From NCBI GenBank assembly GCA_050273025.1, contig CP158635.1:19344001-19408000 (forward strand): 64,000 bases of DNA, given 5' to 3'. Every line of letters begins with the position of its first letter. Position 1 is the stretch's first letter. Made by a program: the position numbers and the translations under genes. The notes under the pieces were generated by a model, which was not told where the DNA came from, made no database searches, and worked only from the letters and a program-made list of their open reading frames with translations. Shown here one piece after another: positions 1 through 49,018 of the stretch. The stretch is from Cenococcum geophilum (Eukaryota).

Positions 1-2667
1 AATAGGAAACTTAGGTTATATATTAACTATAAATAGTTAAATAGTATTACTTAAAAGAATAGGTATTCTTTACCCTTAATTAGTAAAATCTAAGACTAGA
101 TAGGTAATACGTAAATCTTTATAAAGATAGATCTAAGATAGGCGTATTATTAGATTAAAATTAAAAAAGGTAATAAATAGAAGGCAGCCTTTAGGTTAAG
201 AGAAGGACTATATAAACTATTAGTTATATAATTTAGATTAATAAATACACCTATAATATTTTAGAAAAGAATTAATAGTATATTAGAAGAACACCTTAAT
301 AAGTTTATTATAGTATACCTTAATAATATTATTATTTACTTAATAACTAAGGAAGAATACGGGGAATATATTAAATGGGTTTTAAAGAGACTATAGGAAG
401 AATAGATGCTAGTAGTAATTAAAAAATACAAGTTCTTTATAAGGAAGACTAATTTTATTAAATTTATTATTAAACTAGATTATATTAGTATAAACCTAAA
501 GAAGATTAAAGCTATATTAAGTTAGCAAGAACTAGAAAATATAATACAGTTAAGGTTATTTTTAGGGTTTTATAATTACTATTAAAGGTTTATAGTATAA
601 TAGTTAAAGAATATTAAACCTTTTACTAGACTTATAAAGAAAGAGAAACTATAGGTATAGGGAGATAAATAAAGGAAGTTGTTAAAGGAACTTAAGGAGT
701 TGTTTACCTAGGAGCTAATCCTTAAGATTTATTAACTAGAATTAGATATAGTTATAAAAATAAACGTATTAAACTATATACTAAGAGTATACTTACTATA
801 AAAGTATAAGGACGTATAGCACCTAGTAGTATACTATAGTAGGAAAATAACACTACTAGAGTTAAACTATAACGTCTATAATAAGAAGTTATTAGGTATA
901 GTTATAGTACTTAAGGAATAGAAAGCATTTTTATAAAGCGTAAAAAAATTATTTATAATTAAAATAGATTATAAGAACCTAATAGGGTTTCTAATAATAA
1001 AAGAACTTAATTATAGATAGGTTAGATAGGTAGAGATACTTATAGAATACTATTTTAAAATTTAGTATATTAAAGGAACTAAGAATATAAAAGTAGACGC
1101 ACTTAGTAAAAAAGCTAAACTATAAAATAATAAAAAAAACTATTAGGAGTAATACTACGTAAAGATAATAATAGGTTAATTAAATATAATTACCCTAAGC
1201 TAGTAGTAACTTAAGAGGATAATAAACTAGAAAAAGTCTATAAGACACTAAAAAGCTTTTAGGTATAAAGAATTTTTAAAATATAGCTAGAAGAATAGTT
1301 AGAGTATCTAGAGAAAGAAATATTATATAAATATAGAGAAGTAAAGTATATCCTAAAGAGCATAGTAGAGCATTTTATAGAAGATTTCTATAAGGGAATA
1401 ACTTAAAGACATAATAGAGTAATAGGCTTAGTATTAAGACTTTAAGAAGAATATATTATTAATAGAATTTAAAATATCGCGAGAAAAGTAATAAAGGAGT
1501 ATCTAGATTGCTAAAGAAATAAATTAATAAGATATAAGTTATATAGAGGACTATAACCTATTAAAATACTAGAGAGACTATAGGAGGTTATATTATAGGA
1601 CTTTATTACTAAGTTACTAAAGTTAAGAGATCCTATTACTAGATAAGATTATAATATAATCTTAGTAATAGTAGACAAGTTAATTAAGTAGGGCTACTTT
1701 ATAGCATATACAGAAGAAATATTAGCAGAGGATATTGCTAGAATCTATATTAAAGAAGTATTTATAAGATATAGAGTACTAAGTAAGATTATATTAGATA
1801 GGGATTTAAGATTTATAGCAGCATTTTAGGAGGTATTTTTGGCAGAATAAGGGGTTTAAGTAGTAACTTCTATTATATACCACTTATAGACAGACGGTTA
1901 GATAGAAAGATTAAATTAGATATTAGAGCAGTATCTAAAATATTATATTAATTATATACAGAATAATTAGGTATTGCTATTACTAGTTATACAGTTTATA
2001 TATAATGTAATACTATAGGAAGAAATAGGCATATTACTATTAAGGTAAATTATGGATATAAGCTAAGAATATTGTTATTATTATAGTAAGTAAAAAAAAA
2101 ATAAGTAGTATAGCTAAAGAAAGAATAAAGACGTTAATAAATCTTTATATAAACCTTATAGAATTAGTAAAGAAAGTATAAGAAAGGATAAAAAAGTACT
2201 ATAATACTAAGAGATCTAAGGGACTAGATCTTAAGGAGGGAAATAAAGTATGGCTACTATACAAAATTTTTAAGAGTTAACAACTAAGTAAGAAGTTAGA
2301 CTATATTAAACTAGAACCTTTTAAAATTATATAAAGGATTTTACTAGTTATATTTAAGTTAAACCTACTAGCTAAAATAAAAATTTACCCTATATAGTAT
2401 ATTATAATACTAAAACTAGTATATAGAAATATTAAGCTATTAGTTTATAAGGCAGATATATATAGAGGGTAAGAAGAAGATAAATAGTAAGTTTTAAAGA
2501 TTATTAATTATAAGGATATTAACAATAAAATATAGTATAAGGTTAAGTAGATAGGCTATACTAAGACTACTTAGGAACTACTAGAGAATTTAAAAAACGC
2601 TATAAGAAAAGTAGAGGAGTATTAGAAGAGATTAGGTTAAGTAGTATTAATAAAGAAGAATTACTAA
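1..2667 (+). pseudogene. Gypsy pol remnant (RT-RNaseH-integrase-chromodomain)
   Basis: Translates to RKLRLYINYK*LNSIT*KNRYSLPLI, VYLNNIIIY (YLDD), NYNVYNKKLLGIV (RNase H), YH L*TDG*IERLN (integrase) and a C-terminal chromodomain-like W*VLKII...YKVK*IGY. Many stops, consistent with RIP. Confidence 0.92.
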
Positions 2668-2669
2668 AG

Positions 2670-3272
2670 AATAAGTCACCTAAGGGGGACCTAGGAAGAG
2701 TCGTTACTAAACTACTTAGATTTATTTTCTTTCTAGCCTAAGGAAAATCCGTTTTTTTATTGCTAAGTTTTTATAAACCTTATTTTATAAGTTTCTACTC
2801 TTTAAAATAGACCTTTTTATAACCCTTTTTAAGATAGATTAACTAAGCGGACGCCATAAGATAAGACTTAAGGGCCCGTTACTAAGTATTAGTAGCCTCC
2901 TATTTAGCATTATAAGAATAATATAACTCCGCTAGGGTAACTAATAGTTTATTATCTAGCCGCGCAGCAGTAGATTAAATACAAAACTCTAAGATAAATT
3001 AGTTAAGAAATTAGATAACTATTAAGAGTAATAGATTGTATATATTTAGTATTAGAGATAGAGTAAATATTATAAGATAAATAAATATTCGCTTTAGTGC
3101 ACTCTAAGTAAGAGGACGGTTATTGTGAAGATAGGTTTATTAATATAATATAAACTAACCCCTCTTTTAAATAGCGAGAATATAAAAACGGTATAATCTT
3201 ACTAAGAGATAATATCGTAGTAATAGTACGAGCGCGACGAGCAGTTAAAGAAGAAGAAGAAGCTTTAGGTAT
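2670..3272 (-). pseudogene. Antisense accessory ORF in Gypsy 3' region with Zn2Cys6-like cysteine spacing (RIP-mutated)
   Basis: Minus strand from 3272 reads (M)PKASSSLTARRARTITILSLSKIIPFLYSRYLKEGLVYIILINLSSQ*PSSYLECTKANIYLSYN. Reverting TAT/TAC to TGT/TGC gives C-x2-C-x6-C-x13-C-x2-C-x8-C. 3' extent is approximate. Confidence 0.6.
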
Positions 3273-3380
3273 AATAAGTAATAATATTAACCAAATTAAT
3301 TAAATGGGTATTATACCTCTGGTAAGCAACTTAAAGATATTTAAAATCTTTAAGGACGAAGATAAAGAGGAGGGAGATAG

Positions 3381-3801
3381 TGTTATAAACGCTTTAAGTA
3401 TAATATTATAACTACTTAGAGAAGAGTTAGAAGAAGCTAGTTAATTAATATAGGTACGGTTTAGAATAGAGCTGATAGAACTATATAATAAGGAATAGTA
3501 GCTAAGGTTATATAACGTAATCTATATAATTTATAGGATCTATATAATCTAAAATAGAGTAAATAGAGTATACATACCTTACGTATAAAGGGGATTTCTT
3601 AGAAGTATAGTTATATATTTAAAGGACCATAGTCCCTACCTAAATAGTTCTCTCCTTTATAGTAAATCTTAGAATACAATTAGAGTTAATCTATTAGGCA
3701 ACCACTCTACTAAGTTATTATTACGTTGTTAACTATTCTATACCTATATACCTAGCCCATTAATAAGTCTACCGTAGTTCCTACTATAAGACTTTATTAC
3801 A
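3381..3801 (+). repeat. 3' LTR of Gypsy element A
   Basis: Starts TG directly after the PPT and ends CA at the junction with captain coding sequence. The partner LTR is not in the window. Confidence 0.75.
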
Positions 3802-5089
3802 AAATGGTTTAGCTATTTAGAGTCCTTACTAACTGGTAGAATATAGAAATATCGTCTAGTTTCCAATTTAGCTATAATAGTAGCTTATTATAACCTGGCT
3901 TAATATAGAGCTTACTTAGCTCCTTAGGAGATATAAGATTATATACTATAAACGCCTAATTAGTAAAAAGGAGACTAAGAAGGAAGATATAGGGGCTAAA
4001 GGTAAGGGATAGGGAAGGTATTTCTAGTTAGTAGGTAAGTATTAGTACTTATTTTATAACGTTATAAATAGTAGAAACTAAAAGGAAAGGATAGAACTTT
4101 AAAAACCTATATATCTTTTACACTAAGGTACTCCCTTATAAATTTAAATATAAATTTTAGTAAAATATAGTGGAGCCCACCCTCTAGGTCCTAGAGTAGC
4201 GTAACCCTAATATACTAATAGTAGAGATTAAGGAGGGCTTAAGGCCGATTTATAATAAAACTACCCAGTTATAAATATAGCTAGAGTAGTATCCTATAGC
4301 GTCTATAGGAGTACCTCTTTTTAGTCGTTATTAGGTTTATCTACAGCACTTTTATAAGGTCCTCTATATATATATAGGGCTTCTCTAGCCCTATCTTCTT
4401 TAAGCTATACTTTTTAGCTAGCTTTTTAAGCACCTAACCCCTAAAATTAGTTATATCTAAAGCCTGGGGTATATAATATCTAAAAGCAGTTAAAATACGC
4501 TCACCTTATATATATTCCTATTTAACCGACTATTAAGCTTTATACTAGTCGCTCTTTTATATATAAGGCGGTAGACCTTCTAGTATATCTTAAGGGAGCT
4601 TAATACCTTAGTTCTACAGCGCCTCCTTCTTTCTTTCCCTTAGTATTAATTAAGTAGCTAGTTAAAAAAAAGCTATAAAGATTGCAAAAAGAGATAGTTA
4701 TATAGGCCTTTTAAGGGTTCTTTCCTAAATACGCCCAGAACCTATACTATATATTAGCGCTATTAGGGTAGTATAACACGGTAGGGAAATGGAAAGAGAT
4801 AGGCTGCTTACTAATACCACTACTTTTTAATGCGGTTAAGTAGACGGGTACTACTAGGTTTATAATCCTTCTTTATATATTCTGCTTTATTAAACGTGTT
4901 AAGCTATTTAAGGTAGTACTTAGGCGAGTAGCCTTTATTAGCAAGAAGCTATACCCAATTATTATTGTTTTTATTACTATAGGTATTAATATTAGTTAAG
5001 TCTATACTAGAACTAGCTTTATTAGTTTTTAAATTTATATATTTACTCTCCTTAGACAAAGAGTATTTATTTAATAGGTATTATCGCAT
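3802..5089 (-). pseudogene. DUF3435 tyrosine recombinase (Starship 'captain'), 5' half, RIP-inactivated and interrupted by Gypsy A
   Basis: Spliced minus-strand translation gives DYKPSSTRLLNRIKK*W, intron 4742-4811, FWAYLGKNP...SSLKIY*KVYRLIYKRATSIKLNSRLNRNIYK, intron 4434-4504, VLKKLAKKYSL...EKPYIYIEDL...TTKKRYSYRRYRILL*LYL*LGSFIINRP*ALLNLYY*YIRVTLL*DLEGGLHYILLKFIFKFIREYLSVKD, then NTFPIP...SPYIFLLSLLFTN*AF. This matches the DUF3435 consensus as I know it (NRPxALL, RVTLLRDPEGGPH, NTFPIP). Start codon is approximate. Confidence 0.88.
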
Positions 5090-5349: not shown

Positions 5350-5596
5350 TATTAGTATAACTTTTACAACGTGCAGAATATATATATCACAATGATATAT
5401 ACTATGCGGTGTTATAAATAGATGATTTTATTCTCTAAGATCTACGCGTCGCGAGAGGTAAGGCTTATCGCGTGTTCTCCTATGACCTCTGTCAACCAAT
5501 TACGATTTTCTATGCCCGGCATGGAAAATCGCCATTGGCTCGCTTACCACTAGCGCCTTAGCCGCCCTTACGATGTGTCTAACACTTTTAGCTACA
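5350..5596 (-). repeat. Copia 3' LTR
   Basis: Near-identical to 11114-11360, differing by transitions; T(G>A)TTAG...GCTACA ends. Confidence 0.93.
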
Positions 5597-5722
5597 CTAG
5601 GAATACTTTAGAAAATGTAAAGATCTGGTATCCTACAACTGTGCAATTTAAAAATCCATATACGCACTTCTCCTTCCTTCCTTCCTTGCTATTATAGTAT
5701 AGGTTATAATAGTACCAGGTAG

Positions 5723-5846
5723 TGTTATAGGTGCAGGTAGATTGCTATAGGTTGCCACAGATTGCCGTAGATTGCGGTTACGTGACACAGAGATTATATA
5801 CACCCTCTTTATTATATTCACACATTAATTAACTAAGTTACTAACA
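5723..5846 (+). repeat. Short LTR derivative related to the Gypsy D LTR, lying inside the Copia 3' end
   Basis: TGTTATAG...CTAACA. GTTGCCACAGATTGCCG-A-ATTGCGGT-ACGTGA and the terminal ~21 bp match the reverse complement of LTR 56071-56287. No TSD seen; left end uncertain. Confidence 0.55.
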
Positions 5847-5849
5847 TAG

Positions 5850-8800
5850 TGCGTTTTACCCATTCCACTATCTTTAACTTAATTCGGTTTATGTCGATAA
5901 GTCGCTTAAGGGCTAATAATGGTTTGCTTTTAGTTATAGCGTCCATAGGGTTACTGTCTCCGTTAATCCATTTAACTTCCGCTATTTCGCATCTTTTATA
6001 TAACTAGCGTAGGCATATAACATTAATTATAAGTCTCTTCTCTTATATAGTTCCTAGTTTAATAAGGCATTTATAAATTAACTTAGAATTAGTGCAAAGA
6101 ATAAGCAAGAGGTTGATATTAAGTTATAATTTAATTGTGGCCTTAATTGCAGCGCCAATATTAAAACTATAGGCCATAGCATATAATTTGGAGGCTAGTA
6201 CGCTTTTAGTGATTCTCTTACACTTAACTAAGGACTAGTGGACAATATTCGCCTTGTTTAATAAGTCTGCTAGTACTAGGATATATCCAATCTATAATAA
6301 GAGGTCTTTATTATTTATAAATGAGGAATCAGTAAATATAAGTAGTTAAAGTGTCTTTATATCAAGCTTAATAAAGCTTAAGCCTCTTATTGAGTTCTTA
6401 ATTTGCTACTAAATTCTCTTATTAAGTAGTTTTACGTCTTTCTCGTTAGGGTTAATTACCTAGGCAGCGTAGGATAAATTAAAAGAAGCTTTAGGCTGGC
6501 ATACGGACGCAATATAAGCTCCTCTTACTCGTTGGGCGATATATTAGTCCTTAGGTATAAGTGCTATACAAATAGTGCCTCTGGAACTGGTTATTATAGT
6601 AGCTTCCTTAATATTAATAAGGGTCAAGTTCTGGCATTAGCGCTTTTATATGAGCGTAATTATATAATCCTATTGTTGGATAATGCCTCCGTTAAACTTA
6701 ATTGGGTATTCCAGTATAAGTTGCTCGCGTTCTTTAGTTAAAAACTTAGCTTTTTTAATTTTCTCCTATTCCAAAGCTACAAAAACTAAGTTAGCTAGTA
6801 GGAGGGTATTATTAGTCTATAAACCAACTATTCCGAAACTTATAGTATTATTAAGGTAAAGTAGGTAGGGGTTATAAGTAGATTGGTTCATGTTTAGTTC
6901 TTTAATATAGTGGTTATAGTAAGTCTTAAACTAATAATTGCCTGCCTTAGGAATGCCGTATAAAGGTCTAACGACCTTTAGAATTGTGTCTTATAAGACT
7001 CTAAGCGCTGTACTAAGTTTAAGAGGTGCTTTAATATAAAAGTCTCGGTTTAGTTTTATAGTTAATTATATATAGGCCTATAAAATGTCTTATAAGTAGA
7101 GATATATACCATTGTTTTAAGTTATAGCTATAATGCAAAGAATAAGGCGTTAGCTAACTCGTTAAATTATAGGTAATTGGGTTAGTACGAGGTCTTTCTC
7201 TAGGTCGTTGTAGGCCTATATAACTAGTCTTAACTTCTTAAAGGCTTTATCAGTGCCGGGGTTCTTAATCTCGTTAACAAATCTAGAGTTAAATACTCTA
7301 TTGCCTTGTGGTATATCCTTAGGGTTAACTAATTTAAAAACTCCTTTCTTAAGCAATCCCTTAATCTCCTTCTGGCGTAATACTGTAAACTAATTAGGAT
7401 TTATAAGTTAATTATTATCCTCATCCTGCAGATAAATTAAGATATTTATAGTATTTGCTTTAATAGGGTACTTACATGGTCTACCTTTTCCATATTTAAC
7501 GGGTTAAGGTCTAGGCTTAGTTTAAGGTTAAGGTTTAGGCTTGGTTTAAGGTAAAAGTAGTTTAATATCGTCATCTTCTAGTTGCGTATCTTCTGTGATT
7601 TCGGGGTCTACTATATATAGTTTAACAACTATGCTGCGGAAGTTAGTAGGTCTATAGGGAAGTTGTATAGTATAGGTCTTATTTTTAATGCTAAGTAGGT
7701 TATACGGACCAGACCAGTAGCTAGGTTAGCCTATAGGTCCTTCTCTCTATACTAATATAGGTAAGTTAAGCGGTAGGTTATAAATCGCGGTTATCTTGGG
7801 TCTGTTACGCATATTAAGGGCATCTACTACTTAGCGCTTAGCTCTAAGCTTCTTAACTTCTTCTATAGCCTTTTTAAGAGCTACTACTTGTTTTATAACC
7901 GTAGGATTGGGTGCGTCGGATTCTACTATATATAGGTAAGCTCCGAATACTAACAAGGTAGGTATAAGACCATTAGGGCCTGCGGAGTTGTTGATTGCTT
8001 TAAAAGCCATTTATAAAGCCATGTCTTTGTTAATATCCGGTAGTTCCGCAATAATAATATGGTATATGCGACGGAGGGGGCTATAGTAACGTTCTACTAT
8101 TCTAACTAAATTATAGGCTTCGATAGGTACGCCTTTTGTAACTATTCCAAGTATTATAGCGTATTGTTTAAATTCTTTGCTTATGAAGTTCTTGCCTGCG
8201 TTGTATATAATAATATTAGGGGGTCCTAGGTATATGTTAATCCAGCACATTTGTAGTATATCCCATATATGCTTGGCGCTAATGCTTTATAGCCATCTGC
8301 TGGCTTAAAATCGTGTTCCTTTATTAATAATATATAGTAGAGGTGTGCCATTAATATACATAATATTAACCACGATTAAGTAGTTAAAATTAATATTATT
8401 ATATAAGGTAAATCTAAATCTACTAGGCGACTTTTTATATTTTTAATAATGGTGGCAGTAATATGTAAGATAGTCTAAAGTCTTACTATTAATATCGTGC
8501 CCTAAGCGTTCAAGTATTCATACAAGACGCTTAACTAAAGGGTAGCCGAAGCAACGATGTAGTCGTCTTAATTCAATGTTAGTTAAGTAGTAAGGGTTTT
8601 AATTAAATAATATAGTTAAGTAGTTACATAGGGATGTGTTTTAAAGGAGGAATAGATAGCTAAAGCGACGTATAACTAGTACTTCGCTCTAAGGGGTAAT
8701 TAGTATATTTTTCAGGTTGTTAAAGTACACTTATAGTTAATCTATATCTGCCAGGCAGAGTAAAAATAGGGTGTTAACTTTAATAATATGAAACTTAATT

Positions 8801-10761
8801 ATGCCAATTAGGGTAGTTACTTTAGTTAATTTAATTAATGAGGTTAATCTGATGCCGAATTGTACATTAATTATACCTTATGCGGTGGTATTAAGTTATA
8901 CACTAGTATTAAGTCTTTAGAATGCTAAAAATTGGCCATATCCTACTATAGATCGTTTAGATGCTCCTATATTAATTATTATACCTATAAAGTAGTCTGC
9001 AGTATAGCGGGACGTGGATATGGTTGCATTATAGGTAAAGGGGTCCTGGTTAGTTATAAGAGGTGTTATATTATCTATGGTTATAACCAAATAGCTAAAG
9101 GCTTTATTAGCTAGGGTAGCAGCTATAAAAGTTACTTTATGCTGTTCTACTTGGCCAAAAGAGGTATAGAAGTGGTTAATATCTAGTTAAGAGTTCTTGT
9201 CGGTTGCCTTATAATTTGTGTTAATAGTTAGTGCTTAGAAAGCTTCCTTAAGCTCTTCTTCTAAGTTAATATTGTTATCTTCGTAGTCTATAATATATTA
9301 ATTAAGTCATTTATTAAATCGGTTATTAAATTTACTAAACTTATCTCTATTAGCGGTTCTAAACTTAGCTTTAGACTCTTCTTATTCTTCTTAAATATGG
9401 TTTTATAATCGGCAGCCTTCCTTATTATATATAAAGCAACGTGGTTTATAATATAGAGAGAAATAAGGGCGGGTGCGGTTGCGGTTATAGTTTCGGTCGT
9501 AAGTTCGGTTTTAATATTAGTTATAGTTTTGATACTAATTATAGTTATTCTCCCTTCCAAAGTACCAACAATCTATGTAGTAAGCTTAAGTTTAAGCTTA
9601 CTCTAGGTTCTGTTTTTTATAAGCCATAATTAAGGACTATAGTTTATTAATAAGGGGGCCTAGTTCTTAAGGTGGGTCTAATACAGCGAATTAGTATACA
9701 TGAATTCCCTAGTAAGATGTAACAAGTTTATTAGTTAGGAATAGTATTATTTATAGTTCTAGGGTAAGGCCATGCTATAGTTGGGAGAGTGTATTAATTA
9801 ATATTTGGAGGCAATCGCTAGTTAATTTGTCTATATTCTTATCTATTATCGTCCTTAATAAGATTGCATTCTATTTACTAAGGTTCTTACGCTCTAAGCC
9901 AGGGCCTTTAAAGAAATTACGAAGGTGCCTATAAGCGTCTTTAAATAAGAGATTACTAAGTCCGCTGTTAAAGTACTAGTTTAAGGCTAGACCTATTAAT
10001 ATAATTAGTAAAGCTTTATTATAAGCCTCTTATAGAATATTAAATTGGTTACAGATGTTATAGAAGATAGTAAGTTTATAATTAAAGCTGCTATTTATAC
10101 CATTATATTTAAGTTCCTCTATATATATCTTTACTGCGTTAGAAATCTCTTTACCCTATCCTAATATAGTTAGCATCTATAGAAGGGGAGCGGTTTGGGG
10201 TTATAGGGTTACATACGGTAAAGGTCCTACTAGTATTCCTTTAGATAGTGGTAGGGTTATAATCTAGACACTTAATGGTTATTATAGTTGAAATAGGGTT
10301 ATGCGAACTATTAGGTCTTGTAATACTTTATAGTTAAGACCGCGCTTAAGTATATTGTTTATTTTATTTAACTAAAACCTATTTCTATTTAGCTCATCAT
10401 ATACCTTATCTAAGTTCTCTTAAGTCTAGGAATATTAGCGTTCTTCCTAGGTTAATTTAAATAAGAGTTGCGTATATATTATACGTTTCTCCTTTATATG
10501 TACGTATACTCCTCTATATCGTAGGAAGGTATACATGCTTTAAAGGTACTATATATTTACTTTTAAAAATATATTAATACTAAATGTTTTAAAATCGTCT
10601 TAGAAGGAGGACCAAAGTCTATTATCTATTAACTTGTACTTATTGTATTCCTATAACTTAAATAGTATAAAGTCTATAAGGTCTTTACTAGTTGCCGTTT
10701 ATATATTAATCCCGTTCCTCTATTATTCTATTTCTACCTTCTAGTCTATAGGTATAGCCAT
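5850..10761 (-). pseudogene. Copia gag-pol remnant
   Basis: Probable ATG at 10761; stop-riddled integrase, RT and RNase H motifs, ending ...KIVEWVKR near 5850. Confidence 0.85.
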
Positions 10762-11113
10762 CTTAAAAGAAATAAGGAAGATGCGTAGAATAGTTTAGGG
10801 GATAGTTTAAGTGGTTATTTAAGGGATAGTTTAAGTGGTGGTTAGGGTGGTCGCGTTTTTAGTATGGTCGCGTTCTTAACGTGGTTACGTTAACTACTGG
10901 TATAGTGGTCTGTCTCTAGTTAAGGTGGAGCATTAGACGTCTTCTAAATCCAGGGTAGATTTAAGGTATTTCTGGGTAAGGTGGAGCGTTAGACGTCTTC
11001 CAAATCCAAAGTACTTTAATTCTCTTTAACTGAAATAGGGCCTTTATAAGGTGGAGCGTAAACGTCTTTTAAGCAAGTGCGTATCTCCTAATCTATGCGC
11101 GCTCACTAATTAG

Positions 11114-11360
11114 TGTTAGTATAACTTTTATAACGTGCAGAATATATATATTATAATAATATGTACTATACGGTGTTATAGATAGATGATTTTATTCTCT
11201 AAGATCTACGCGTCGCAAGAGGTAAGGCTTATCGCGTGTTCTCCTGTGACCTCTGTTAACCAATCACGATTTTCTATGCCCGGCATGGAAAATCGCCATT
11301 AGCTCGCTTACCACTAGCGCCTTGGCCGCCCTCATGATGTGTCTAACACTTCTAGCTATA
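11114..11360 (-). repeat. Copia 5' LTR
   Basis: Pair of 5350-5596, followed by TSD GTATA. Confidence 0.93.
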
Positions 11361-11965
11361 GTATATAAGTATACGGCGTATCTAGGCGTACCTTAGCGTT
11401 AAAAAAGGCCAAGGGTGCCTTGCTCTATTGCTAACATTATTTGCGCCTGGGCTAGGCTAATACAGGCAATCCGGACAGCCTTAGCGCTTAGGCCACTAGC
11501 CGCAGGTTTTGGGGTTTTTTCGGGCAAATCGGCCTCAGAAAACGGCGTCACAAACCGCCAAAAACGGCGGCCAAGTCGCCGTCTAATTGTTTAAGGTAGG
11601 AAGCAAAATCCGTAAAATAGATATTGCGGATATCTAATTTATTTATTTATATAACGCGTTATTATTACCAAAAGTTAATACAATATTTTTAAGACTTAGG
11701 GCTTCTAAATGGTATAAATTTTATAATATAGCTATTGCTTAGTCCTAATATTAATTTCGTTAAAGTTAAAAAACGCGTTATTAAAAGCGTAAGCACATAT
11801 TATATCTTATTAAATGGTTTACTAATATAGACAAAACTATATAGATACATAGATATCTACTACTTAAAGCTATTACAACACCTAGTAGGTGCTGTAGTTA
11901 GGTCCTTCCTTAAAAATATCCTCCCTTAGCCCGGAGTGCTTCTGCTACTACTAGGTAAGCTTTAG

Positions 11966-12540
11966 GCAGAGCCTCGTGTAGAGCCTTAGTAGAGCTTCGT
12001 GTAGAGCTTCGTGCAGAGCTTCGTGCAGAGCTTTGTGTAGAGCCACGTGCAGCCGTGTAGACGTATAGATGTGCAGACGTGCAGACGTGTAGACGTGCGG
12101 ACGTGCAGACGTTTGTACAGGCGATTAATTGCAGAGATGTTTATAGAGACGATTGTATGGGCAATTGATTAATTGATTGTATGGGCGTTCGTACGGGCAT
12201 TCGTACGGGCGTTCGTACGGGTGATTATAGAACCTTCCTAGTATATTAGTGCTGTGTGTTAGTAGAGCTTTAGAGCTCTATATAGGGCTTTAAGTAGAGC
12301 TTTAAGCAGAGCTTTAAGTAGAGCTTCGAGCAGAGCTTTGTGTAGGGCTTCGAGCAGAGCTTCGAGCAGAGCTTCGAGCAGAGCTTCAAGCAGAGCTTTT
12401 ACGGAGCTTCGTGCGGAGCTTCGTGCAGAGGTTTTGTAGAGGTTTGGTAGAGCTCCGTGCAGAGCTCTGTGCAGGTCTCCCCCTAAGCTTCGTTCCGCAG
12501 AGCTCTCATAAAGCTCTACGGTTCTACGCAGACGCAGAGC
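11966..12540. repeat. Compound minisatellite (12-bp GCAGAGCTTCG(T/A), 8-bp GTGCAGAC and 12-bp TTCGTACGGGC(A/G) units)
   Basis: Directly visible tandem arrays at ~11966-12050, 12055-12112, 12180-12222 and 12285-12470. Confidence 0.85.
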
Positions 12541-13034: not shown

Positions 13035-15958
13035 TTACAGCAGCTTAACCACCGCCCCGTACCCTCCCCCTGCAGCCGACGACAGCGCCGTCAGACCGTG
13101 CTTGTCCTTAGAGTTCACGTCGATGCCGTCCGCGCCGAGCAGCAGCTTAACCACCGCCTCGTTCCCACTCCCTGCCGCCCACGACAGCGCCGGCCAACCC
13201 TCGCCGTCCTTGGAGTTCACGTCGATGCCGTCCGCGCCGAGCAGCAGCTTAACCACCGCCTCGTTCCCAGTCCCTGCCGCCCACGACAGCGCCGGCCGAC
13301 CCTCACCGTCCTTGTAGTTCACGTCGATGCCGCCCGCGCCGAGCAGCAGCTTAACCATCGCCTCGTCCCCAATCATTGCGGCCCACGACAGCGCCGTCCA
13401 ACCCTCGCCGTCCTTGGAGTTCACGTCGATGCTGCCCGCGCCGAGCAGCAGCTTAACCATCGCCTCGTTCCCAGTCCCTGCCGCCCACCATAGCGCCGTC
13501 CGACCCTCGCCGTCCTTGGAGTTCACGTCGATGCCGTCCGCGCCGAGCAGCAGCTTAACCATCGCCTCTTTCCTAGTCGCTACGGCCCACCACAGCGTTG
13601 TCCGACCCTTGCCGTCCTTGGAGTTCACGTCGATGCCGTCCGCGCCGAGCAGCAGCTTAACCACCGCCTTGTGCCCATTCCCTGCGGCCCACGACAGCGC
13701 CGTCCGACCCTTGCCATCCTTGGAGTTCACGTCGATGCCGTCCGCGCCGAGCAGCAGCTTGACCGTGGCCTCTTGCCCATTCCCTGCGGCCCACGACAGC
13801 GCTGTCCGACCATACTCGCCCTCAGAATTCACGTTGACGCCGGCTATCGAAAGTGCCATCCGGCCAACATTTTCCTTGGAATTGGGATTATATCCAGGAT
13901 TAAAGAGAGCTATTATCGCTTCCCTTAGTCCGAAGTAGGCCGCAACGTGTAATCCTCGCATTTCCGCTGGCGTTGTCAGCATAAAGTAATCGTCAGCCAA
14001 CATCGCCTGACAAGAGGCGGACAGCTTAACTTCGCTCTTAAGAAAACTTAGAACTACCTCTTCTACCTCCAGTGAAGATGCACGAGTGTGGTATCCCCAA
14101 TTTCGGGCAGCGTAGTCGTAAAGGGTATACTGCTGCAATCGGGCCTTAAAATCTTCTTCGGTTGAATAGAAACCAGCAGCGAAAATATTAAACGACAGAT
14201 ACGTCAGGCAAATAGTTGCTATATCTACTTGCGCATTGGGGATTGAGAGTGTCCAGGTTCGCTCGAAGTATTCTTGTGTTGTGTAATGAATCCAGCGAAT
14301 AATTTGACTATTTTCATCGACGGTAACTAGGCCAGCGCAGGCAGAAACTATATCTTCAACCTCAGGAATAAAGTCTGTGTCTAGCTCTGCTGTGCCGATC
14401 TCAATAGTGCAGGCGTGTTGGAGCTCTGCAGTAGTAAGGGGTCTCTTTGTGTGCGTAACCCAAGACAGAACCCTTGTTGCAAGAGTTTGATATTCTTCCT
14501 CCTGGCCATTGATTCTTTTCATGGCTTGATCATACATGGCGTCCACTCCTTTAATTCCACGAGGCAGGTTCCGCAGAGCGCGTTTGATATCCCCAGGTGT
14601 TGGCTTGCTTATAAGGGAGTCCATATGCAGCTGTGCAAGGAGAAACCTAGCAAATATATTAATCTGGTTAATGTTATGTAATTGTGGGATAGTGCACCTA
14701 CATTCCATCTACGGCTTTTACTACCTCTTCTCCAACTGCATGCAGGAGATCTGGGTATTTTGAAATCCGTGATCGTAGGAGTTGGGGTATCCGCCCGTTG
14801 ACATATCTCAGGACGTCAGCTTCCTCAGCACGGATGGTTTTCGTTATACATGCTTCGAACTGTGACATAATTTCTGGAACAAAACGAGATGTTGCAAAGA
14901 TGTTTACTTCAGCCTGCACCTGAAGATTGAATACCTCTCCCAGAAACTTTCTACGCTCTTCGCTGGAGACGTGGCATTCGTCTAAAGCGTCAATAATTAT
15001 AAATACCTTTGAATATAACTGGGTAGTAGATTGCAACACTTTTACAACATCGTTAAACGAAGGACGGGTTCCTTTAGTCACATGGCGCTCATGGAGGTTC
15101 TTAACATCCATAGGTACCGAAGGCTGTTTCTGGGAGAGCTGTTTTAATAGACTTGAAAGTAAAGCCTCAGCACTCTGCTCTTGCTGCCGCTGGTAGTTAC
15201 AATATAGGTATGCGATTCCGACGTCGGTGTTATTGAACTCGGCCCAGAGATAATCAACCACAATGGATGTTATGATCGTCTTGCCTGCTCCTGGTATGCC
15301 TGGGCAGAACATCGTCTGCTTGCTTGGGCTGAGCCACCCCTGGAATTCGCTCGAGTTTATGAGCCATAACCCAGTCCCCTCCTGTCGCCGACCAATGAAG
15401 TCGCTTTGCTGAGTAGCGTAGTCGGTCGGTGAGAGCCAATCCATGATAGCCCGACGCTCTTGATTATCTTGGTGATGTACTAACTTATCCACACCTTCTC
15501 TGGTAAGCCGGCTATTAAACGTATTTAGAAAATTAACGTTCGAGACAATGCGACCCCGGAGCTCTCGGATGTCATCGGGCTCCCATTTGAGTTTCTTCCA
15601 CACCCTTTTCGTCCTTTTGCTAGCGTTCATAGGCCCTGAATCTAGTTCGCCATACTTACCTAGCGTTTTCTCCAATTCGTGGAGAACACTACGACATCCG
15701 TGAGCGATGCCGTCCAGCTCTATCTTTTCCTTGTTAGAAAGATCTCGTTCCGAGAGGGCGACTTCGACATCTTCAACGACAATCGAGAGACTTCTAACCC
15801 TGTTACCAGGTGGTCAGCATCGGCTAACAATCCCTTTAGAGAACTTACTCATCGGAAATAGCCTTGAATTGACTCGGAGCACCAACAAATTCCTTTCGAA
15901 TCTTGCTGGCAAGCTGGCAAACGGCGACAAAGTCGCCTACACTGAAACCAAAGCTCAT
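13035..15958 (-). CDS. Fungal NLR-like protein: HeLo-like/SesA-type N-terminal domain + NACHT + ankyrin repeats (~939 aa; exons 15958-15849, 15799-14702, 14646-13035)
   Basis: Starts MSFGFSVGDFVAVCQLASKIRKEF. Two GT-AG introns (15800-15848, 14647-14701) join the ORF-track pieces in frame. Walker A GIPGAGKT, Walker B IIIDALDE, VDGMFLLAQLH, C-terminal ankyrins. Confidence 0.92.
13038..13812 (-). repeat. Array of ~8 highly similar 102-bp (34-aa) ankyrin repeat units
   Basis: G(R/W)(T/P)AL(S/W)WAAxxGxEAxVKLLLGADGIDVNSKDG(K/E) repeated; 7 full units plus a terminal partial unit. Confidence 0.95.
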
Positions 15959-20242: not shown

Positions 20243-23200
20243 TCAGTTCACAGCCTCCGCCATTATTTGCTCTCCTTCATCTAGCATGTTCATAATCAGT
20301 CTCAGATTGCCCACCATCTCTCGTGCCTGTCCAACTAGCAGCAGCTTCTCCGCATTCGCTGGCAGGCCTAGGTACGTCGGCGGCTCGCGTTCTGGCAGTG
20401 CGTTGACCCACTTCATAAAATCCTGCCAGCCAGTTGTGGTGGGTAGCGTCAAGCCCGCATCCTTGACAATGTGGAAGCTCTCGTCGAATGCTGCCGGCAT
20501 CATGACGCTCTCAACGAGAGCCCGCAGCGAGTTGAAATCACCCTCGTCGTCGATCTTGCCACCGTACATCTCTGTCATCAGTGTGCATAGCATGGCCCAC
20601 GGTATGTTCTTAGGCGCGATGTTGGTTCGACCATGCGCCACCGAGTCTATCCATGTGTCAATAATGAAGCTACAGCATTCATACTGTAAAACAAGTTAGC
20701 AATACTATTCGTACTGAGTAAGGGAGTATATAAGAAACTTACGTCACTGTCATTGAACTCCCAGAAACCCTTCCATCCCAAGCTTGGGGCATAGCGTAGC
20801 CGTTCCTGGACAACGGCATGGAGGAAGGATAGCAGGAGATAGACGCGTGCCTTCTCAACTGGCTGCTTAGTTGCCTTCTCCGCCAGCGATGAAAGCGAAT
20901 CCTTCATGTTAGCCCGGATGCCGGCTGGTTGCTCGTACATCAAAACACGCGAAGCCCGAAGGAGATTGACTGGAATCTTCGGGCTGGACTCCATAGACAG
21001 AAAAAGTCTGAAGTCAGGATGAGGCTTGAGCGAGTCGATTCGTTTTTCCAGGCTCTGCAACCAAGTTGGTGCAAGATGGACGTTCTTAATAAGCACCCAG
21101 GATCCCGTAGCGGCTGCATTACTGATAGCTTTATCTGCACTTGCCACCCCTTCATTCGAACCCATGGCAATATTCGTACAGCTCGCGCGCTCGCGTTCCA
21201 CTAGATTATCGACTTTGTAACTTGCGTCGAAGCCAGGGTTGGAACTTAGTGCAACCGGCGTGGTGGCGGTGACTTGTTTAACGATCTCGCCCAAATCTCC
21301 ACTGGCATCCAACAATCCTTTGCCGAAGACTTCGGTGACGAAACGCTCAACAGCAGGCACGAAACGATCCACACGGAAAATTTTGACGAGAATTAGAGCC
21401 CGAAGCTGCTGGTCAAATTTCCCCGTCTCCGCAGGCCATACTCGAGGAACACATTGCTCTGCCAGCTCTTCAGTGAAGAGCGTGTTCCATGCCGATGCGT
21501 CCAATCCTTCAAGCTCGTCCTTGAACAGTGGAAGTTTTGATGCACGCGCCATTGCCTCATCTTTCCGGTCCACTTCCGTTGACACATCAACTCCTTCAGT
21601 ATCCTTGTCGAGGATAATGTCAATAAGCCCCTTGTCCATCTTGTAGGGCGCTGCTTGTACTAAAAGCATAGCTAGTGTGACGCGGTCCTTTTGCAAAAGG
21701 GATAGTGAGGTACGGCGATAGGTGTCCGCAAAGAGTTCGCCCAAGATATGATCAATGCGCGCAGTATGGTTACTTGCTTGTCCTGATTTCTTGACACGTT
21801 GGAGAACTGCGTCGAAAATTCCCGTGAAATACTGAAGGGAGAATTGGTAGAAGTGGTTGATGTGATGAAGTTGCTCCAATACCGCGAAGATTGCAGAGCA
21901 GGACCGAGCAACAACGGTATACTGGAGCGTGATGTTCTCAACTTCGGTCATAACGCCTTCAGTTTCAGCCACCTTGGCGGTAATCTCTGCGGCTTCCTTC
22001 TTAAGGGTCTCAAGAGTTTCAATCACACGATCATCGTCAAGGATGTTGCCGCGAGACTCATTCAGCGCTTGAAGCAGTCGTTTTTCGAGTTGTCGCAGAT
22101 GGACGCTGAATTCTCCTTGCATCTTGATGAGATTTGACCGTCGCTCATCCACGTCGGGTCGTTCAGACTTCAAAACTTCATTGAGCGTCTGCGTCTGTAA
22201 GCTGCTCTGGGTGACGGTGAAATTCACAAAGGTGGTGCGACTGCAAATATCAGGTGCGAATGTGGCCGAGGGATCCCGCGTAGATAGGAAGAGCTTGAAA
22301 GAAGGCGAGAAATCGATCTCCTGCTTGCCTAATTGTATAAGCACACGGCCACCAGTCTTTTGATATTCTTTGTTGAGGACGTGGTTCAGGATAGGGTCCA
22401 AGTGCTCGGCATCCTGAATAAGAATTGGATTACCAAATCGAAGCGAGCTTTCAAGTTGCTTGGTGAAAGAATCGTCCAGGAAACTTGTGACTGTAAGTCG
22501 ACGATCCTTACATTCGTTCTGCAAGAACTCTGTGACTCGGCCCGAGGGATCGATAATCAATGGATATCGATTGAACCTCTTTAGGATGATTGCATTCTCA
22601 GTACACAAATCGTCAACTGGCAATGAATTGTCTTGCCAGCTTAGTCTTTCATCAGCTGTCGAAAGGTATTCAGTGACCGGGTTAAGAGTCTTATAGCTGA
22701 TTCCAGAGAGAGAAAGGTGATGAAGCCAATCATCCATCATGGTCTTCCGGTATTGCTGGTCATAGTAGCCTCCGTATGCGATGAATGCTGCGGCGACGAG
22801 AACATCCCCGACAATAGTGTTAATTTGAGTCTCAAATGACCGACTACTTTCCTCCCATCTAGATCTCTCGGAAGAAAGACTGTCCAGAAGGCGTACACTT
22901 CGATCGACCTTGAACTGAACTCTAGCCATCTCCGATTTGATGGCTTGTGTTTCGCTGATGAGAGCTGCGTATTCAGTCTTGTACCTTGAGATGCTGTCCT
23001 CGAGAGCCTTGATGATATCTTCGGTCTCTTGCGCTTCCTTCTTAGTCTTTTGAGCTTCCGCTTCGAGGTGGCCTACTTCTTCCCGTAGAGGCCCAACCCG
23101 ATCCAAGATTTCAGAAAAGTTGACTTGAGCATGAACCCATTGAACGAGTGGACCGCATGCCTTGCTAGCGCGGTTGACCCTGTCGAATGTGAAATCCTCC

Positions 23201-26200
23201 TTCGAGAGATATTCATTTTGCATCCTCGTACGATGATTCCGGGTCATTTGCCTCTCGTTGTCATAGTTGACTATGCTAGCAATGAAGTCGTCGCGCCTGA
23301 CAATAGCCAGTATTCCTTTCCAACTGTCGAACTTGTGGCCAAGTAAGGTGCAGACTGCCTCGAGAGCCAACTTCACGCCAGCCGGTGGGTTTTGCATTGA
23401 TCGAACTTCTGTGAGATGTTGCCTCTTAATGTTCTGGACACTCTTCTGCGCCTCAAGAACAGCAGGTTCTGCGTTTGCCAGATCGTTCATCACAACCTGT
23501 CTTCTCAACGCAATTTCCTTCTCCGATTTTTCCAGAAATGCCTGGATTCCCAAGGATGTCGTTTTGCTTTGTTCAGCTTCTCGTTGGTCGGCAATCATTC
23601 GCTGCAGTTTTTCATTGGCTTCTGCGTCCTTCTTTTCCAATTGGCCCTGCTTTTCCGCCAGGCTCTTGCGCAAATCTCGAACTTTATCCACAGTCTCTCG
23701 CAACTTCTCTAATCCTACGTTAAGATGTCTCTGTTGTTCCTCAAGATCCTCGCGCTTCTCGTTATATAGCTTGACGTACTGTGCAACAAAGTCAAGGAAA
23801 TGCCGGGGAGTGAGGTAGGTAACCTTGTTCTGTTGCTTCTGTAATCTCTTGTTGAAATAATGCAAGGAGAAATGGATGTAGACCATTGCATTCACAACTG
23901 CTTCACGGTGTGATGGTGGAAGGTTCAATCCACGATGAGCTACGGGAATAGTATCCGGAGCAACAAAGTTGGCTCTATCCAAGTCGACAGATTGTGTTAA
24001 CTCAGAGCCGACTTGGAAGAGAGCTTGATCAGACCAGTCGCCGAACCAGTTAAGAACGCATCTGTTAAACAAGGCAGGGCTCGTTGCCGCTTTCGACGAT
24101 AATCCTTCTTCTGGTGGGTTCATCGTGAAAACAACGTGTAGATTTTTCACGATCTGTTGTGTGAACCACTTATAAAGCTCCTCCTGCGAGTCCAGGAGCA
24201 AACCTTGCCTCTGGGCTCCCTCCTTGCATGATGTCATAAGTGAAGCATACTCATCTCCTTCGAACAATCCCGGAACTTCGGCGTTGGCAAGCAAAGTATT
24301 CATGCGTTCCAGGAAACCTGAGTCGAGAACGTTGGATTCGTCCATAATAAAACAAATTTTCTCACCCTTGCAACCACACCGTCGAAGCACATTTCGCAGA
24401 TCCTCATCGAAGTCTTCGGCTGAGTATTTTCCGTGAACTTTAATCTGATAAACTTTGAGTCCGTTCATCCATGCCACAAAGCGGGACAAGGTTGTCTTTC
24501 CACTTCCACTGACACCGATTAAGATAAGATGTCCTTGAGGCTGACGGAATACACGATCGATCCGTAAGACGTGCTCTAGAACATCATTGAAAAGGATCAA
24601 GGGCACATCGACCTCTTCCTCGCAGAAGGTTTTTAGTCGAGCTTTGACAAAGTCTCGAAGTTGGTCACGATCAACCGGGACGTAGTTCTTAGAAAGCCAA
24701 TTCGAGAACAGGATAGGACCGCCAAGCGCTTGTTGTTCGTCGATGGTCGGGAAATGCTCCAAAGCAACCCGGTGGACGCATTCCTCAGTCCACTTACGCT
24801 CTTCTTCAGCAATGAGGCGATCTTGGAAAAGTCGAAGAGCTTCGTGCGCCCAAATCCTGACCAGTCCTTCGAGAGTTAAGCTTTCGAGTGGTCTAATGGC
24901 TTCGTAAACGCCACGTACCCATCTAGTAAGCTCTCTAGGAGAATAGACGTAGTGTGGTTGAATCTCCGGGGTAAACCTCTTTTGTGATTCGGCGTAGAAT
25001 TGAACCATCGCCTTTGTGAACGGTTCAGAATAACCACGCAGGGCTGGAAGGATTTTGAGAACGGCGCTATTGAAGGTTCCGTAGATTTGAAGAAGCGACT
25101 GTTCACCAGGATAGTCGACCATTATCAAGGGCGAGTGACGCAAAAATCTGAGGGCCATAGGGGTACGGCCCGCGTCTGTGGGTGGATTGCAAGCACCGAC
25201 AAATTGAATGCGGTCTAGAGTAACCCAGGTCTTATCAGTAGTTCTCCAGAATCCGTTCTGTTCAACGAGCTGGCGCAGGAACGAGATAGCCCGCTGAGTC
25301 CCATATTTGTCAGGAGCTGGCAAGTTGATTTCGTCACAGAAAATTACCAGCCAGCGGCCGATCTGCGTAGGTGTAAGAACTACACCGTTCAGGGTTTTCT
25401 TGTATTCACAGTACTGCTCGAAGGTCTTGATGAGCAGATCTGGAGTTGTCGCACTTGAGAAATTCAACCCCACAACTTCCATATTGGGTAGCTTTCGCAG
25501 AGCACTGAACAGAGTCATGGTTTTACCTGATCCGGGGGGACCACATAACAGAAGTGGCTTATGCTCTGCGAGCCATGAATATAGGACATCCTCATGCCGG
25601 ACTGTGTCTAGTGTGGGAATGACTACGTCTGTTTGGGTGATTGAATGGGTATTGACCTCGATATTTGGAACTTGGGATTGCCATAAAGTCCAGTCTGTCT
25701 TTGGTAGAGACACGTCGAAATCGATGAGTGAGGTCCCTTCGTTGAGGATGGGTATATCCACTGTGGCAAGACCAGCAATAAGGTCTCCAAATGCTTTGCG
25801 GTCAACTAACGGGCAGTCTCCAACCAACGACCATACAAGGGCAAGCAATAATTTCTTTGAGAGATAAGATTCAATCTGAGAGTCTTCCAAGGGGAAATCC
25901 TGATGCTGGACATTGTATTCTAGAACGGACCTGCACGTTTTATTGAGGAGTGAGAAAAGAGTGTTGAGTGCACGGATGTCCGTGAAGTCCATAATGTGGC
26001 GAAATTTGCGAGAGACACTCAGTGCTTTCTCGATAAACCGTTCCTCGTTCAGTTGAACTTGTAGGAAATCAGCGACCTGTCCCTGGACCACAAGAGCCTT
26101 TTGCGAGAGTTGACCTGGTGCGACAGAGTCATCCTCCAGATCTTCGAATGGAACCGCGCGAAGATTTTGGATGTAGTTGGAAATCATCATTTCTGTTGCG

Positions 26201-42665: not shown

Positions 42666-42847
42666 TGTCACGTAGGGGCCTCTATAGGAGAGCCCCGTGC
42701 TCTCGCGTATACCTCGCGTACAGCTTATGTCAGCTACGCGTAGGTATATCACCTCCTTACGCCCTTGACCCTTACGATCGATCGCGCAACGTCTTGTAGA
42801 CTCCTCGAATACATACGCTTTGTAGCCACTGCCCACGTCCCATGACA
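42666..42847 (+). repeat. Gypsy C 5' LTR
   Basis: TGTCAC...TGACA, matches 48826-49018. Confidence 0.95.
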
Positions 42848-48800: not shown

Positions 48801-48825
48801 TCCGCCTCTATAAGAGGGGGGGTAG

Positions 48826-49018
48826 TGTTACGGAACCCTACCGCAGGGGCCTCTATAGGAGAGCCCCGTGCTCTTACGTATACCTCGCGTACAGCTTATA
48901 TCAGCTACGCGTAGGTATATCACCTCCTTACGCCCTCGACCCTTACGATCGATCGCGCAACGTCTTATAGACTCCTCGAATACATACGCTTTGTAGCCAC
49001 TACCTACGTCCCGTAACA
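48826..49018 (+). repeat. Gypsy C 3' LTR
   Basis: TGTTAC...TAACA following the PPT. Confidence 0.95.

What the first reader, a model, noticed from the sequence alone, without database searches (positions are those of the whole stretch)
2670..3272. Gypsy retrotransposon carrying an antisense ORF with Zn2Cys6 (Gal4-type) cysteine spacing
Seen: between pol and the PPT, the minus strand encodes YSRY-x6-Y-x13-YLEC-x8-Y. Five Tyr codons are single G->A changes from Cys codons, the RIP signature on that strand. Established: C-x2-C-x6-C-xn-C-x2-C-x6-8-C is the fungal binuclear zinc-cluster DNA-binding motif; Gypsy elements normally encode only gag and pol. Inferred: this family encodes its own antisense zinc-cluster-like accessory or regulatory protein, possibly transcribed from the 3' LTR.
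Basis: partly seen in the sequence, partly recalled or inferred. Interest (0 to 1): 0.72.

Follow-up and report, generated by a model that had tools for sequence, protein, structure and literature searches.

The report
Spliced antisense six-cysteine retrotransposon gene
This is a mutation-killed copy of a real extra gene that a lineage of fungal jumping genes carries backwards behind its polymerase gene; relatives splice it and keep it under selection, and it codes for a six-cysteine, long-helix protein that resembles Gal4-type regulators only in rearranged form.

Summary
The six places hold only Cys or Tyr codons in 87 of 88 genomic copies (57 were picked for Cys), and one copy, L149, has all six Cys. 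The gene has two coding exons. RNA contigs from 3 of 4 runs match L149 without other letters and skip a 55-nt GT..AG intron read antisense to pol. Database proteins show the same junction, and P0082 is stop-free with six Cys. Transversions favour third codon positions of the antisense frames. It is not a canonical Gal4 cluster: it scores below Pfam's cut-off, its halves resemble the canonical halves in swapped order, the basic recognition loop is weak, and the modelled dimer is antiparallel. The window copy is dead, and the transcribed copy L149 also has stops. Function is untested; a nuclear regulator of the element is the likeliest reading. Precedent: brtn of Boty and plant antisense ORFs; kinship to brtn untested. 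The scan noted this before on other DNA (112 notes, at least 10 genomes).

The parts
1..2640 (+). RIP-degraded pol of a Ty3/Gypsy element (RT, RNase H, integrase, chromodomain-like end). It continues left of the window; the true pol stop was not fixed.
   Evidence: Translation. Pfam on the matching part of sister copy L149 gives RVT_1, RT_RNaseH, Integrase_H2C2 (under cut-off) and SH3_Tf2-1 in Gypsy order. The chromodomain label is my reading of the translation; Pfam did not report it.
3044..3272 (-). Coding exon 1 of the antisense gene: start-codon site 3272-3270, N-terminal stretch and six-Cys motif. In this copy the start codon reads ATA and there is a stop at 3122.
   Evidence: ATG in 9 of 88 copies and a sense codon at the loop stop in 15 of 88. 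Codon periodicity begins here and is flat upstream. Relatives start Met-Pro at this place. Mapped from L149.
3072..3182 (-). Six-cysteine motif C-x2-C-x6-C-x13-C-x2-C-x8-C; five of six codons are Tyr in this copy
2989..3043 (-). 55-nt intron of the antisense gene; the donor GT is lost in this copy
   Evidence: Skipped, GT..AG, in RNA contigs of runs X1, X3 and X20 on L149. Spliced junction in P0053, P0063, P0082 and P0084-P0087. Length 55, 61, 127 or 130 nt in relatives.
2600..2988 (-). Coding exon 2: long helix (coiled coil), then an acidic, Ser/Pro-rich tail whose end overlaps the pol frame just behind the chromodomain-like region; 9 internal stops in this copy
   Evidence: translation; tblastn of P0053 to 2974-2603, E 2e-9; periodicity; helix 77-151 at pLDDT 81-99 in the P0082 model
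3263..3316 (-). Second, 54-nt GT..AG intron that covers the first start-codon site; skipped in some RNAs of L149 and kept in others
   Evidence: Skipped in X3 and X20, kept in X1. Donor GT present in 86 of 88 copies.
3361..3380 (+). Polypurine tract
   Evidence: Seen directly; precedes the LTR's TG
3381..3799 (+). 3' LTR. The antisense RNA of L149 reaches into its inner edge (equivalent of 3404).
   Evidence: 90.7% identical over 419 nt to a 5' LTR about 4.1 kb left of the window (L150:3918-4336); RNA contig from L149:1667
3482..3511 (.). Conserved LTR block with a short inverted repeat in L149, about 80-100 nt upstream of the antisense RNA's 5' end. Candidate cis-element only.
   Evidence: Transversion rate about 0.015 across 63 distant loci against up to 0.27 nearby; other LTR blocks are as conserved

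Best explanation
The stretch is a RIP-killed copy of an accessory gene that a lineage of fungal chromodomain-type Gypsy elements carries head-on behind pol. Shown: (1) the gene is transcribed from the 3' LTR side, antisense to gag-pol, and spliced; (2) it codes for a protein of about 200 residues with six conserved cysteines, a long helix and an acidic tail; (3) related families keep this frame under selection. Inferred: the intron survives retrotransposition because it lies on the strand opposite to the RNA that is copied. Inferred: the six cysteines bind two zinc ions in a rearranged, half-swapped Zn2Cys6-like cluster akin to DUF3716, and the helix forms an antiparallel homodimer with one cluster at each end. 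Most likely role (inferred, about 0.5): a nuclear regulator made by the element for itself, which binds LTR DNA or chromatin proteins and tunes LTR transcription or silencing, much as antisense accessory genes of complex retroviruses do. That the gene is real: about 0.95. The confidence below is for the whole statement, role included.
For: Cys or Tyr codons only at the six places in 87 of 88 copies. 60 genome matches keep Cys3 and 135 keep Cys1 and Cys2; L149 keeps all six. In 50 of 77 database proteins that fit the motif, the three places left free by the pattern are all Cys or Tyr. Intact spliced P0082; genomic and spliced forms in one 90% cluster. RNA contigs in 3 of 4 runs, from 3 studies, skip the intron GT..AG, match L149 with 0 other letters and cover only 1667-2556, not pol 2609-5000. 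Among 102 distant loci, transversion columns by codon position are [3,22,10] in the Cys region (p 4e-4) and [29,23,57] in the helix (p 1e-4); the peak moves across the intron as the antisense frames predict, and intron and upstream DNA are flat. 74 of 80 metagenome loci have the chromodomain-like region on the opposite strand 521-659 nt downstream; 5 of the other 6 end too soon. Homodimer model: score 0.51, best control 0.02, runs agree in at least 75% of contacts, pLDDT at least 78. That mark was reached by 21 of 30 solved pairs and 0 of 23 single chains (eukaryotes 17 of 29 and 0 of 30, but only 1 of 7 without an older solved relative).
Against: No intact copy was found in this genome: all 150 scored exon-2 matches have stops. 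The transcribed L149 RNA keeps its stops, with a longest Met-started frame of 37 residues. The fourth codon of exon 2 is a stop in 88 of 88 copies and a sense codon in only 4 of 889 pattern matches, near background; relatives have Gln there (9 of 74 matched metagenome loci; P0053, P0063, P0082). The positive control on pol showed no significant periodicity ([21,31,22], p 0.3). In exon 1 the pol frame shares the wobble position, so only exon 2 discriminates. AlphaFold2 gave the Cys region low confidence (pLDDT 45-57; mean 49). The canonical basic recognition loop is missing from the first half. The one raw-read run showed no read on the gene (12% of the run read).
Confidence: 0.55

Rival explanations
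1. The gene is real, but the protein is a zinc-stabilised protein-binding scaffold rather than a transcription regulator of the LTR. It may act on host silencing or development, as a DUF3716 protein of a Zymoseptoria transposon does, or on particle assembly or integration.
For: Half-swapped motif with few basic residues. Antiparallel dimer that puts the clusters far apart. DUF3716 copies in this genome have the same half order, C-x2-C-x9-C-V then C-x2-C-x8-C. P0003 aligns over DUF3716 positions 7-59 at 16.4 bits, cut-off 22. REP9-1 (DUF3716) lowers pycnidia formation (PMC8232023, abstract and passages).
Against: The second half resembles the canonical DNA-reading half (+4.0 against -2.3). An acidic tail and a Cys-cluster-then-helix layout are typical of fungal activators (recalled). 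The best Atlas neighbour is automatically named a Zn(2)-C6 protein (0.90).
Confidence: 0.3
2. What matters is the antisense RNA (double-stranded RNA, self-restraint) or a sense-strand extension of pol; the Cys frame is a by-product of overlapping constraint.
For: The four main intron lengths (55, 61, 127, 130) are all 1 mod 3 (70 of 71 measured loci). The pol frame has few firmly closed columns down into the LTR (6 of 28 stop-majority columns). A copy that cannot make the protein is still transcribed.
Against: In exon 2 the periodicity follows the antisense frame, not the pol frame. The intron is flat. The non-coding continuation of the exon-1 frame looks similarly open (6 of 19 closed), so that test has little power. 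Stop-free spliced proteins exist.
Confidence: 0.1
3. A captured fragment of a host Zn2Cys6 transcription factor riding as a passenger, or a chance Tyr pattern in RIP-eroded DNA.
For: The pattern occurs once more by chance in 37 kb. The host has at least 83 Zn_clus matches.
Against: All 27 host motifs extracted from 30 loci have the canonical half order and 5-6 residue loops. Same position and intron phase across families with up to 18% transversions. Selection signal and splicing.
Confidence: 0.05

Closest known systems
brtn, antisense gene of Boty-like (BcGypsy1) Gypsy elements of Botrytis cinerea and Sclerotinia (Zhao et al. 2011; paper not held; seen only as cited in PMC7264820, PMC8365987 and PMC4227169, passages)
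   Same: Extra antisense gene between pol and the 3' LTR of a fungal chromodomain Gypsy element.
   Different: None of the passages I saw gives BRTN a Cys cluster, coiled coil or function. I had no BRTN sequence, so homology is untested; this may be the same family.
Plant antisense aORFs-3R (Grande gene23, RIRE2, Retand, PvRetro13; PMC7264820, passages)
   Same: Same position and orientation, own antisense promoter, conserved across copies, regulatory role proposed.
   Different: The review reports no clear similarity to known proteins for these ORFs. Here a Cys6 motif, an intron and a dimerising helix are defined.
Fungal Zn(II)2Cys6 binuclear-cluster factors (Gal4, Ppr1; Pfam PF00172)
   Same: Six Cys in two C-x2-C-xn-C units followed by a coiled coil; weak match to Ppr1 (1pyi, E 0.56).
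   Different: Below the Pfam cut-off, halves in swapped order, 13-residue loop, few K/R in the first unit. Modelled dimer antiparallel, whereas Gal4-type dimers are parallel (recalled). No middle homology region; only about 200 residues.
DUF3716 (PF12511), found in REP9-1/-2 of the Zymoseptoria REP9 DNA transposon (PMC8232023, abstract and passages)
   Same: Transposon-borne six-Cys motif with the same half order; full-length sub-threshold alignment for P0003; Atlas structural rows (under the bar for naming a family).
   Different: x9 rather than x6 between Cys2 and Cys3 and a shorter loop. 1 of 22 members matched at E<=1. L149 is not among the 31 DUF3716 matches in this genome.
HTLV-1 HBZ, and ORF3 of the Neurospora Tad LINE (details recalled; my searches gave listings only, no passage read; PMC7264820 passage states that HTLV has an antisense promoter in the 3' LTR)
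   Same: Antisense gene of a retroelement for a factor-like protein; HBZ is spliced and driven from the 3' LTR, and Tad ORF3 was likened to a C6 zinc factor (both recalled).
   Different: Different element classes and, for HBZ, a bZIP fold; no homology tested.

Membership tests
Ty3/Gypsy LTR retrotransposon (chromovirus type) | pol order RT, RNase H, integrase; two LTRs; polypurine tract | tested here: met
   Pfam order on sister copy L149; LTR pair 90.7% identical and PPT
Ty3/Gypsy LTR retrotransposon (chromovirus type) | chromodomain after the integrase | tested here: inconclusive
   Recognised by eye in the translation; Pfam gave no Chromo hit on the RIP-damaged, partly cut query
Antisense additional ORF between pol and 3' LTR (aORF-3R / brtn type) | [quoted passage not shown] | tested here: met
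   74 of 80 loci; 88 genomic copies
Antisense additional ORF between pol and 3' LTR (aORF-3R / brtn type) | own antisense transcript | tested here: met
   Spliced contigs in 3 of 4 runs, strand fixed by GT..AG polarity, no cover over pol; shown for L149, not for the window copy
brtn family proper | sequence homology to BRTN | not testable with these tools
   Paper not held; no BRTN sequence came from any call; no hit carried that name
Zn(II)2Cys6 (PF00172, Gal4 type) | six Cys as C-x2-C-x6-C-x5-16-C-x2-C-x6-8-C | tested here: met
   L149, P0003 and P0082
Zn(II)2Cys6 (PF00172, Gal4 type) | Pfam gathering score of 21 bits over the motif | tested here: not met
   15.6, 16.5 and 13.6 bits, profile positions 16/18-36/38 only
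Zn(II)2Cys6 (PF00172, Gal4 type) | basic recognition loop between Cys2 and Cys3, canonical order of halves | tested here: not met
   K/R count 1, 2, 1 against 2-5 in 27 host motifs; half 1 scores -6.9 with canonical half 1 and +3.6 with half 2; half 2 scores +4.0 and -2.3 (three family sequences only)
Zn(II)2Cys6 (PF00172, Gal4 type) | binuclear zinc fold | tested here: inconclusive
   Cys region at low pLDDT in both models; fold searches driven by the helix
Zn(II)2Cys6 (PF00172, Gal4 type) | zinc binding and CGG-triplet DNA binding | not testable with these tools
   Needs an experiment
DUF3716 (PF12511) | Pfam gathering score of 22 bits | tested here: not met
   Best 16.4 bits; none for P0082 at E<=1; L149 absent from the 31 genome matches

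The most novel reading that the evidence does not exclude
A lineage of fungal chromoviruses are 'complex' retrotransposons. From the 3' LTR they make a spliced antisense mRNA, with alternative 5' splicing that switches the N-terminus, for a half-swapped Zn2Cys6-like protein. Its antiparallel dimer bridges two distant sites, for example the conserved inverted-repeat block present in both LTRs, and so controls the element's own transcription or shields it from silencing. The swapped cluster would form, with DUF3716, a mobile-element branch of fungal zinc clusters.
Probability: 0.3. Interest if true: 0.8.

Novelty: new variant of a known kind. Interest (0 to 1): 0.58.

Why it matters
The function of antisense extra ORFs in LTR retrotransposons is an open question (PMC7264820, passages). 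This family gives it a handle: a defined gene structure confirmed in RNA, intact natural relatives (P0082, P0084-P0087), a metal-cluster motif with testable residues and a candidate LTR site. The family is large here (2,932 and 3,185 first-look candidates in a 178 Mb genome), so an element-made regulator could help explain how such elements multiplied in spite of RIP. In practice, such genes also seed fungal annotations with unnamed or 'Zn(2)-C6' hypothetical proteins that are transposon parts.

Tried and rejected
Single-frame reading 2670-3272: rejected, the gene is spliced. P0014 as a spliced form: rejected; its junction has one residue more and keeps the start of the long intron type, so it is probably a deletion or assembly product. 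The metagenome loci were found with peptide patterns from P0014 that fix Tyr at the third place, so I did not use them to count Cys3. Family copies among the PF00172 matches in the genome: none seen among the 83 listed places (L149's place is absent). Foldseek on the P0082 model gave 0 matches; VIA-align gave only generic coiled coils, Z up to 7.5. The second model (mean pLDDT 49) was not searched. Atlas feature hits of 0.83 and 0.90 are leads only. Other LTR elements in the window gave no tblastn match to P0082, P0084 or P0053 below E 0.9. No pol was found within about 1.5 kb of 8 DUF3716 loci. Literature: searches (PMC Creative Commons papers and bioRxiv only) showed no paper describing a Cys6 antisense gene in a fungal Gypsy element. 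PMC3248453 has no occurrence of 'zinc' or 'antisense' in its main text. Two supplements of PMC8365987 had no hit for brtn; figures are not held, so its Fig. S1 domain map was not seen. Subscription papers, Repbase and Zhao 2011 were not seen.

Full report
1. Observation. The motif is on the minus strand as described: codons at 3182, 3173, 3152, 3110, 3101 and 3074 read Tyr, Tyr, Tyr, Tyr, Cys, Tyr, with a stop at 3122. The region is strongly RIP-marked: GC 22-28% and a (CpA+TpG)/(ApC+GpT) index of 0.2. The bare pattern is weak evidence; it occurs once more in 37 kb of RIP-rich window DNA.

2. The element. It is a Gypsy-type LTR element of about 7.9 kb. Its 5' LTR lies about 4.1 kb left of the window (L150:3918-4336) and is 90.7% identical to the 3' LTR at 3381-3799. 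The pol order RT, RNase H, integrase comes from Pfam on sister copy L149. The genome (178 Mb, 7 contigs) gave 2,932 candidates, of which 40 were scored and 30 fetched.

3. Were the six places Cys? In those 30 copies, the window's own included, Cys stands in 3, 11, 0, 1, 21 and 2 of 30; many control Tyr codons also show Cys in some copies. Pattern searches then found 135 matches keeping Cys1 and Cys2 (5 of the 100 listed also keep Cys3) and 60 keeping Cys3. A search for all six gave 56 matches. By eye, 55 were simple repeats or unrelated and one was a lightly mutated family copy, L149. Over 88 distinct copies (30 unselected, 57 selected for Cys, plus L149; one duplicate dropped) the six places hold only TGY or TAY, bar one CAT. 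Of 166 differences between the window copy and L149 over the gene, 135 are G>A or C>T. Background: transversions 1.85%; of 142 columns with A in L149 and in most copies, 72 show no G in 87 copies and 30 show five or more. In 50 of 77 database proteins that fit the motif pattern, the three places the pattern left free are Cys or Tyr in every case, and the loop is always 13 residues. P0003 and P0082 have all six Cys.

4. Gene structure. L149 showed a second frame after the motif, and a GT donor, branch-like site and AG acceptor 55 nt apart. RNA contigs from runs X1, X3 and X20 (three studies) match L149 with no other letter and skip exactly this intron, GT..AG on the strand opposite to pol. They cover L149:1667-2556 and nothing of pol from 2609 to 5000. 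X3 and X20 also skip a 54-nt GT..AG intron over the first start-codon site, which X1 keeps. The raw-read run X21 (12% read) had no read on the gene. Contigs do not map start sites, and I laid 4 of 24 listed runs. Database proteins carry the same junction (P0053, P0063, P0082, P0084-P0087), and one 90% cluster holds both unspliced and spliced forms. In 80 metagenome loci the intron measures 55 (54 loci), 61 (5), 127 (2), 130 (9) or 131 (1) nt; 9 were not measured. 74 of the 80 have the chromodomain-like region on the opposite strand 521-659 nt downstream; five end too soon and one lacks it. In window coordinates exon 1 is 3272-3044, the intron 3043-2989 and exon 2 2988-2600.

5. Selection. RIP makes only transitions, so I counted columns with transversions against L149 in 102 distant loci (of 139 aligned; 35 near, 2 too short). 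By position mod 3 the counts were [3,22,10] in the Cys region, [4,22,14] in the N-terminal part, [7,6,6] in the intron, [29,23,57] in the helix, [11,15,16] in the tail and [14,15,14] upstream; stricter thresholds agree. The peak moves from position 1 to position 2 across the intron, as the antisense frames require; the pol frame would keep it at 1. Limits: the loci are related, so the p-values are optimistic; the tail shows no signal; and the pol control was not significant ([21,31,22], p 0.3).

6. Results against. No intact copy was seen in this genome: all 150 scored exon-2 matches have stops. The window copy has lost its start codon and donor and has 1 stop in exon 1 and 9 in exon 2. The transcribed L149 RNA cannot give the protein. 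The fourth codon of exon 2 is a stop in 88 of 88 copies and a sense codon in 4 of 889 pattern matches. Saturation is common (13 of 59 CpA/TpG sites that L149 keeps are lost in all 30 unselected copies) and relatives have Gln there, but a stop in this subfamily's founder is not excluded. The main intron lengths are all 1 mod 3; I cannot explain this, and it may point to a constraint on the pol strand.

7. The protein. Pfam Zn_clus scores stay at 13.6-16.5 bits against a cut-off of 21 and cover only the profile's second half; the Ppr1 match does the same. Against 27 canonical motifs from this genome, the family's first half scores -6.9 with canonical first halves and +3.6 with second halves; its second half scores +4.0 and -2.3. 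It has 1-2 K/R between Cys2 and Cys3 against 2-5, and a loop of 13 against 5-6 (three family sequences). So the halves look swapped. DUF3716 copies in this genome show the same order, but the family does not reach that cut-off either. AlphaFold2 models a confident 75-residue helix and an uncertain Cys region. A two-copy model of P0082 with zinc scored 0.51 against a best control of 0.02, with contact agreement of at least 75% and pLDDT of at least 78. The mark was reached by 21 of 30 solved pairs and 0 of 23 single chains; on eukaryotes by 17 of 29 pairs, but only 1 of 7 without an older relative. The contacts (83 with 143, 94 with 133) describe an antiparallel coiled coil. A long helix may pass by likeness to solved coiled coils, P0082 lacks the tail, and the alignment was not used.

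8. How it most likely works. Shown: an antisense, spliced, selected protein gene of the element. Inferred: its intron persists because the copied RNA is the other strand; the cysteines bind zinc; the protein dimerises and acts in the nucleus on the element's own LTR or chromatin (about 0.5). The main rival is a protein-binding scaffold acting on host silencing, development or particles (0.3).

9. Comparison with what is known. Antisense ORFs at this place are known from Boty (brtn) and from plants, with unknown function (PMC7264820, passages; PMC8365987, passages and two supplements; PMC4227169, passages). The brtn paper was not held, so kinship is open. A transposon-borne DUF3716 gene affects pycnidia formation in Zymoseptoria (PMC8232023, abstract and passages). 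HBZ and Tad ORF3 are recalled parallels. Nine searches of the held library showed no description of a Cys6 antisense gene in a fungal Gypsy element; most subscription papers are outside it. Earlier notes of this scan report the same kind of gene many times. I looked them up after forming my reading and count them as no support.

10. Verdict. A real feature and a new variant of a known kind; interest 0.58.

Noticed in passing
L149:1667-2556 (G000:C7): This one stop-bearing copy is found letter for letter in spliced RNA contigs of three studies, and 19 runs hold half or more of its sampled words: an old, shared, still-transcribed pseudogene copy inside repeat DNA.
   Followed up: partly
L149:5924-9025: About 3.1 kb insertion inside the element, absent from the window's copy; its translation looks like a hAT-type transposase (my recall).
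   Followed up: no
window 2989-3043 and loci L151-L230: Intron lengths 55, 61, 127 and 130 are all 1 mod 3, and the Cys1-to-chromodomain distance keeps its frame in nearly all loci; unexplained.
   Followed up: partly
window 3482-3511: Conserved LTR block with a short inverted repeat around a CGG-containing core in L149; one of several conserved LTR blocks.
   Followed up: partly
L265-L271: RIP-damaged repeat family carrying DUF3716 (31 matches in the genome); no pol within about 1.5 kb in 8 loci examined.
   Followed up: partly
window 20647-33048 (-): 4,133-residue open frame that reads like cytoplasmic dynein heavy chain (name recalled).
   Followed up: no
window 13035-15813 (-): NACHT-like NTPase followed by about eight 102-nt ankyrin-like repeats, next to the repeat block (names recalled): a fungal NLR-like gene.
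   Followed up: no
window 5352-11363, 42671-49018, 56071-62028: Three further LTR elements with LTR pairs 91-94% identical; none matched the antisense protein.
   Followed up: partly
window 11976-12464: Tandem arrays of 12-nt and 8-nt units at the edge of the repeat block.
   Followed up: no
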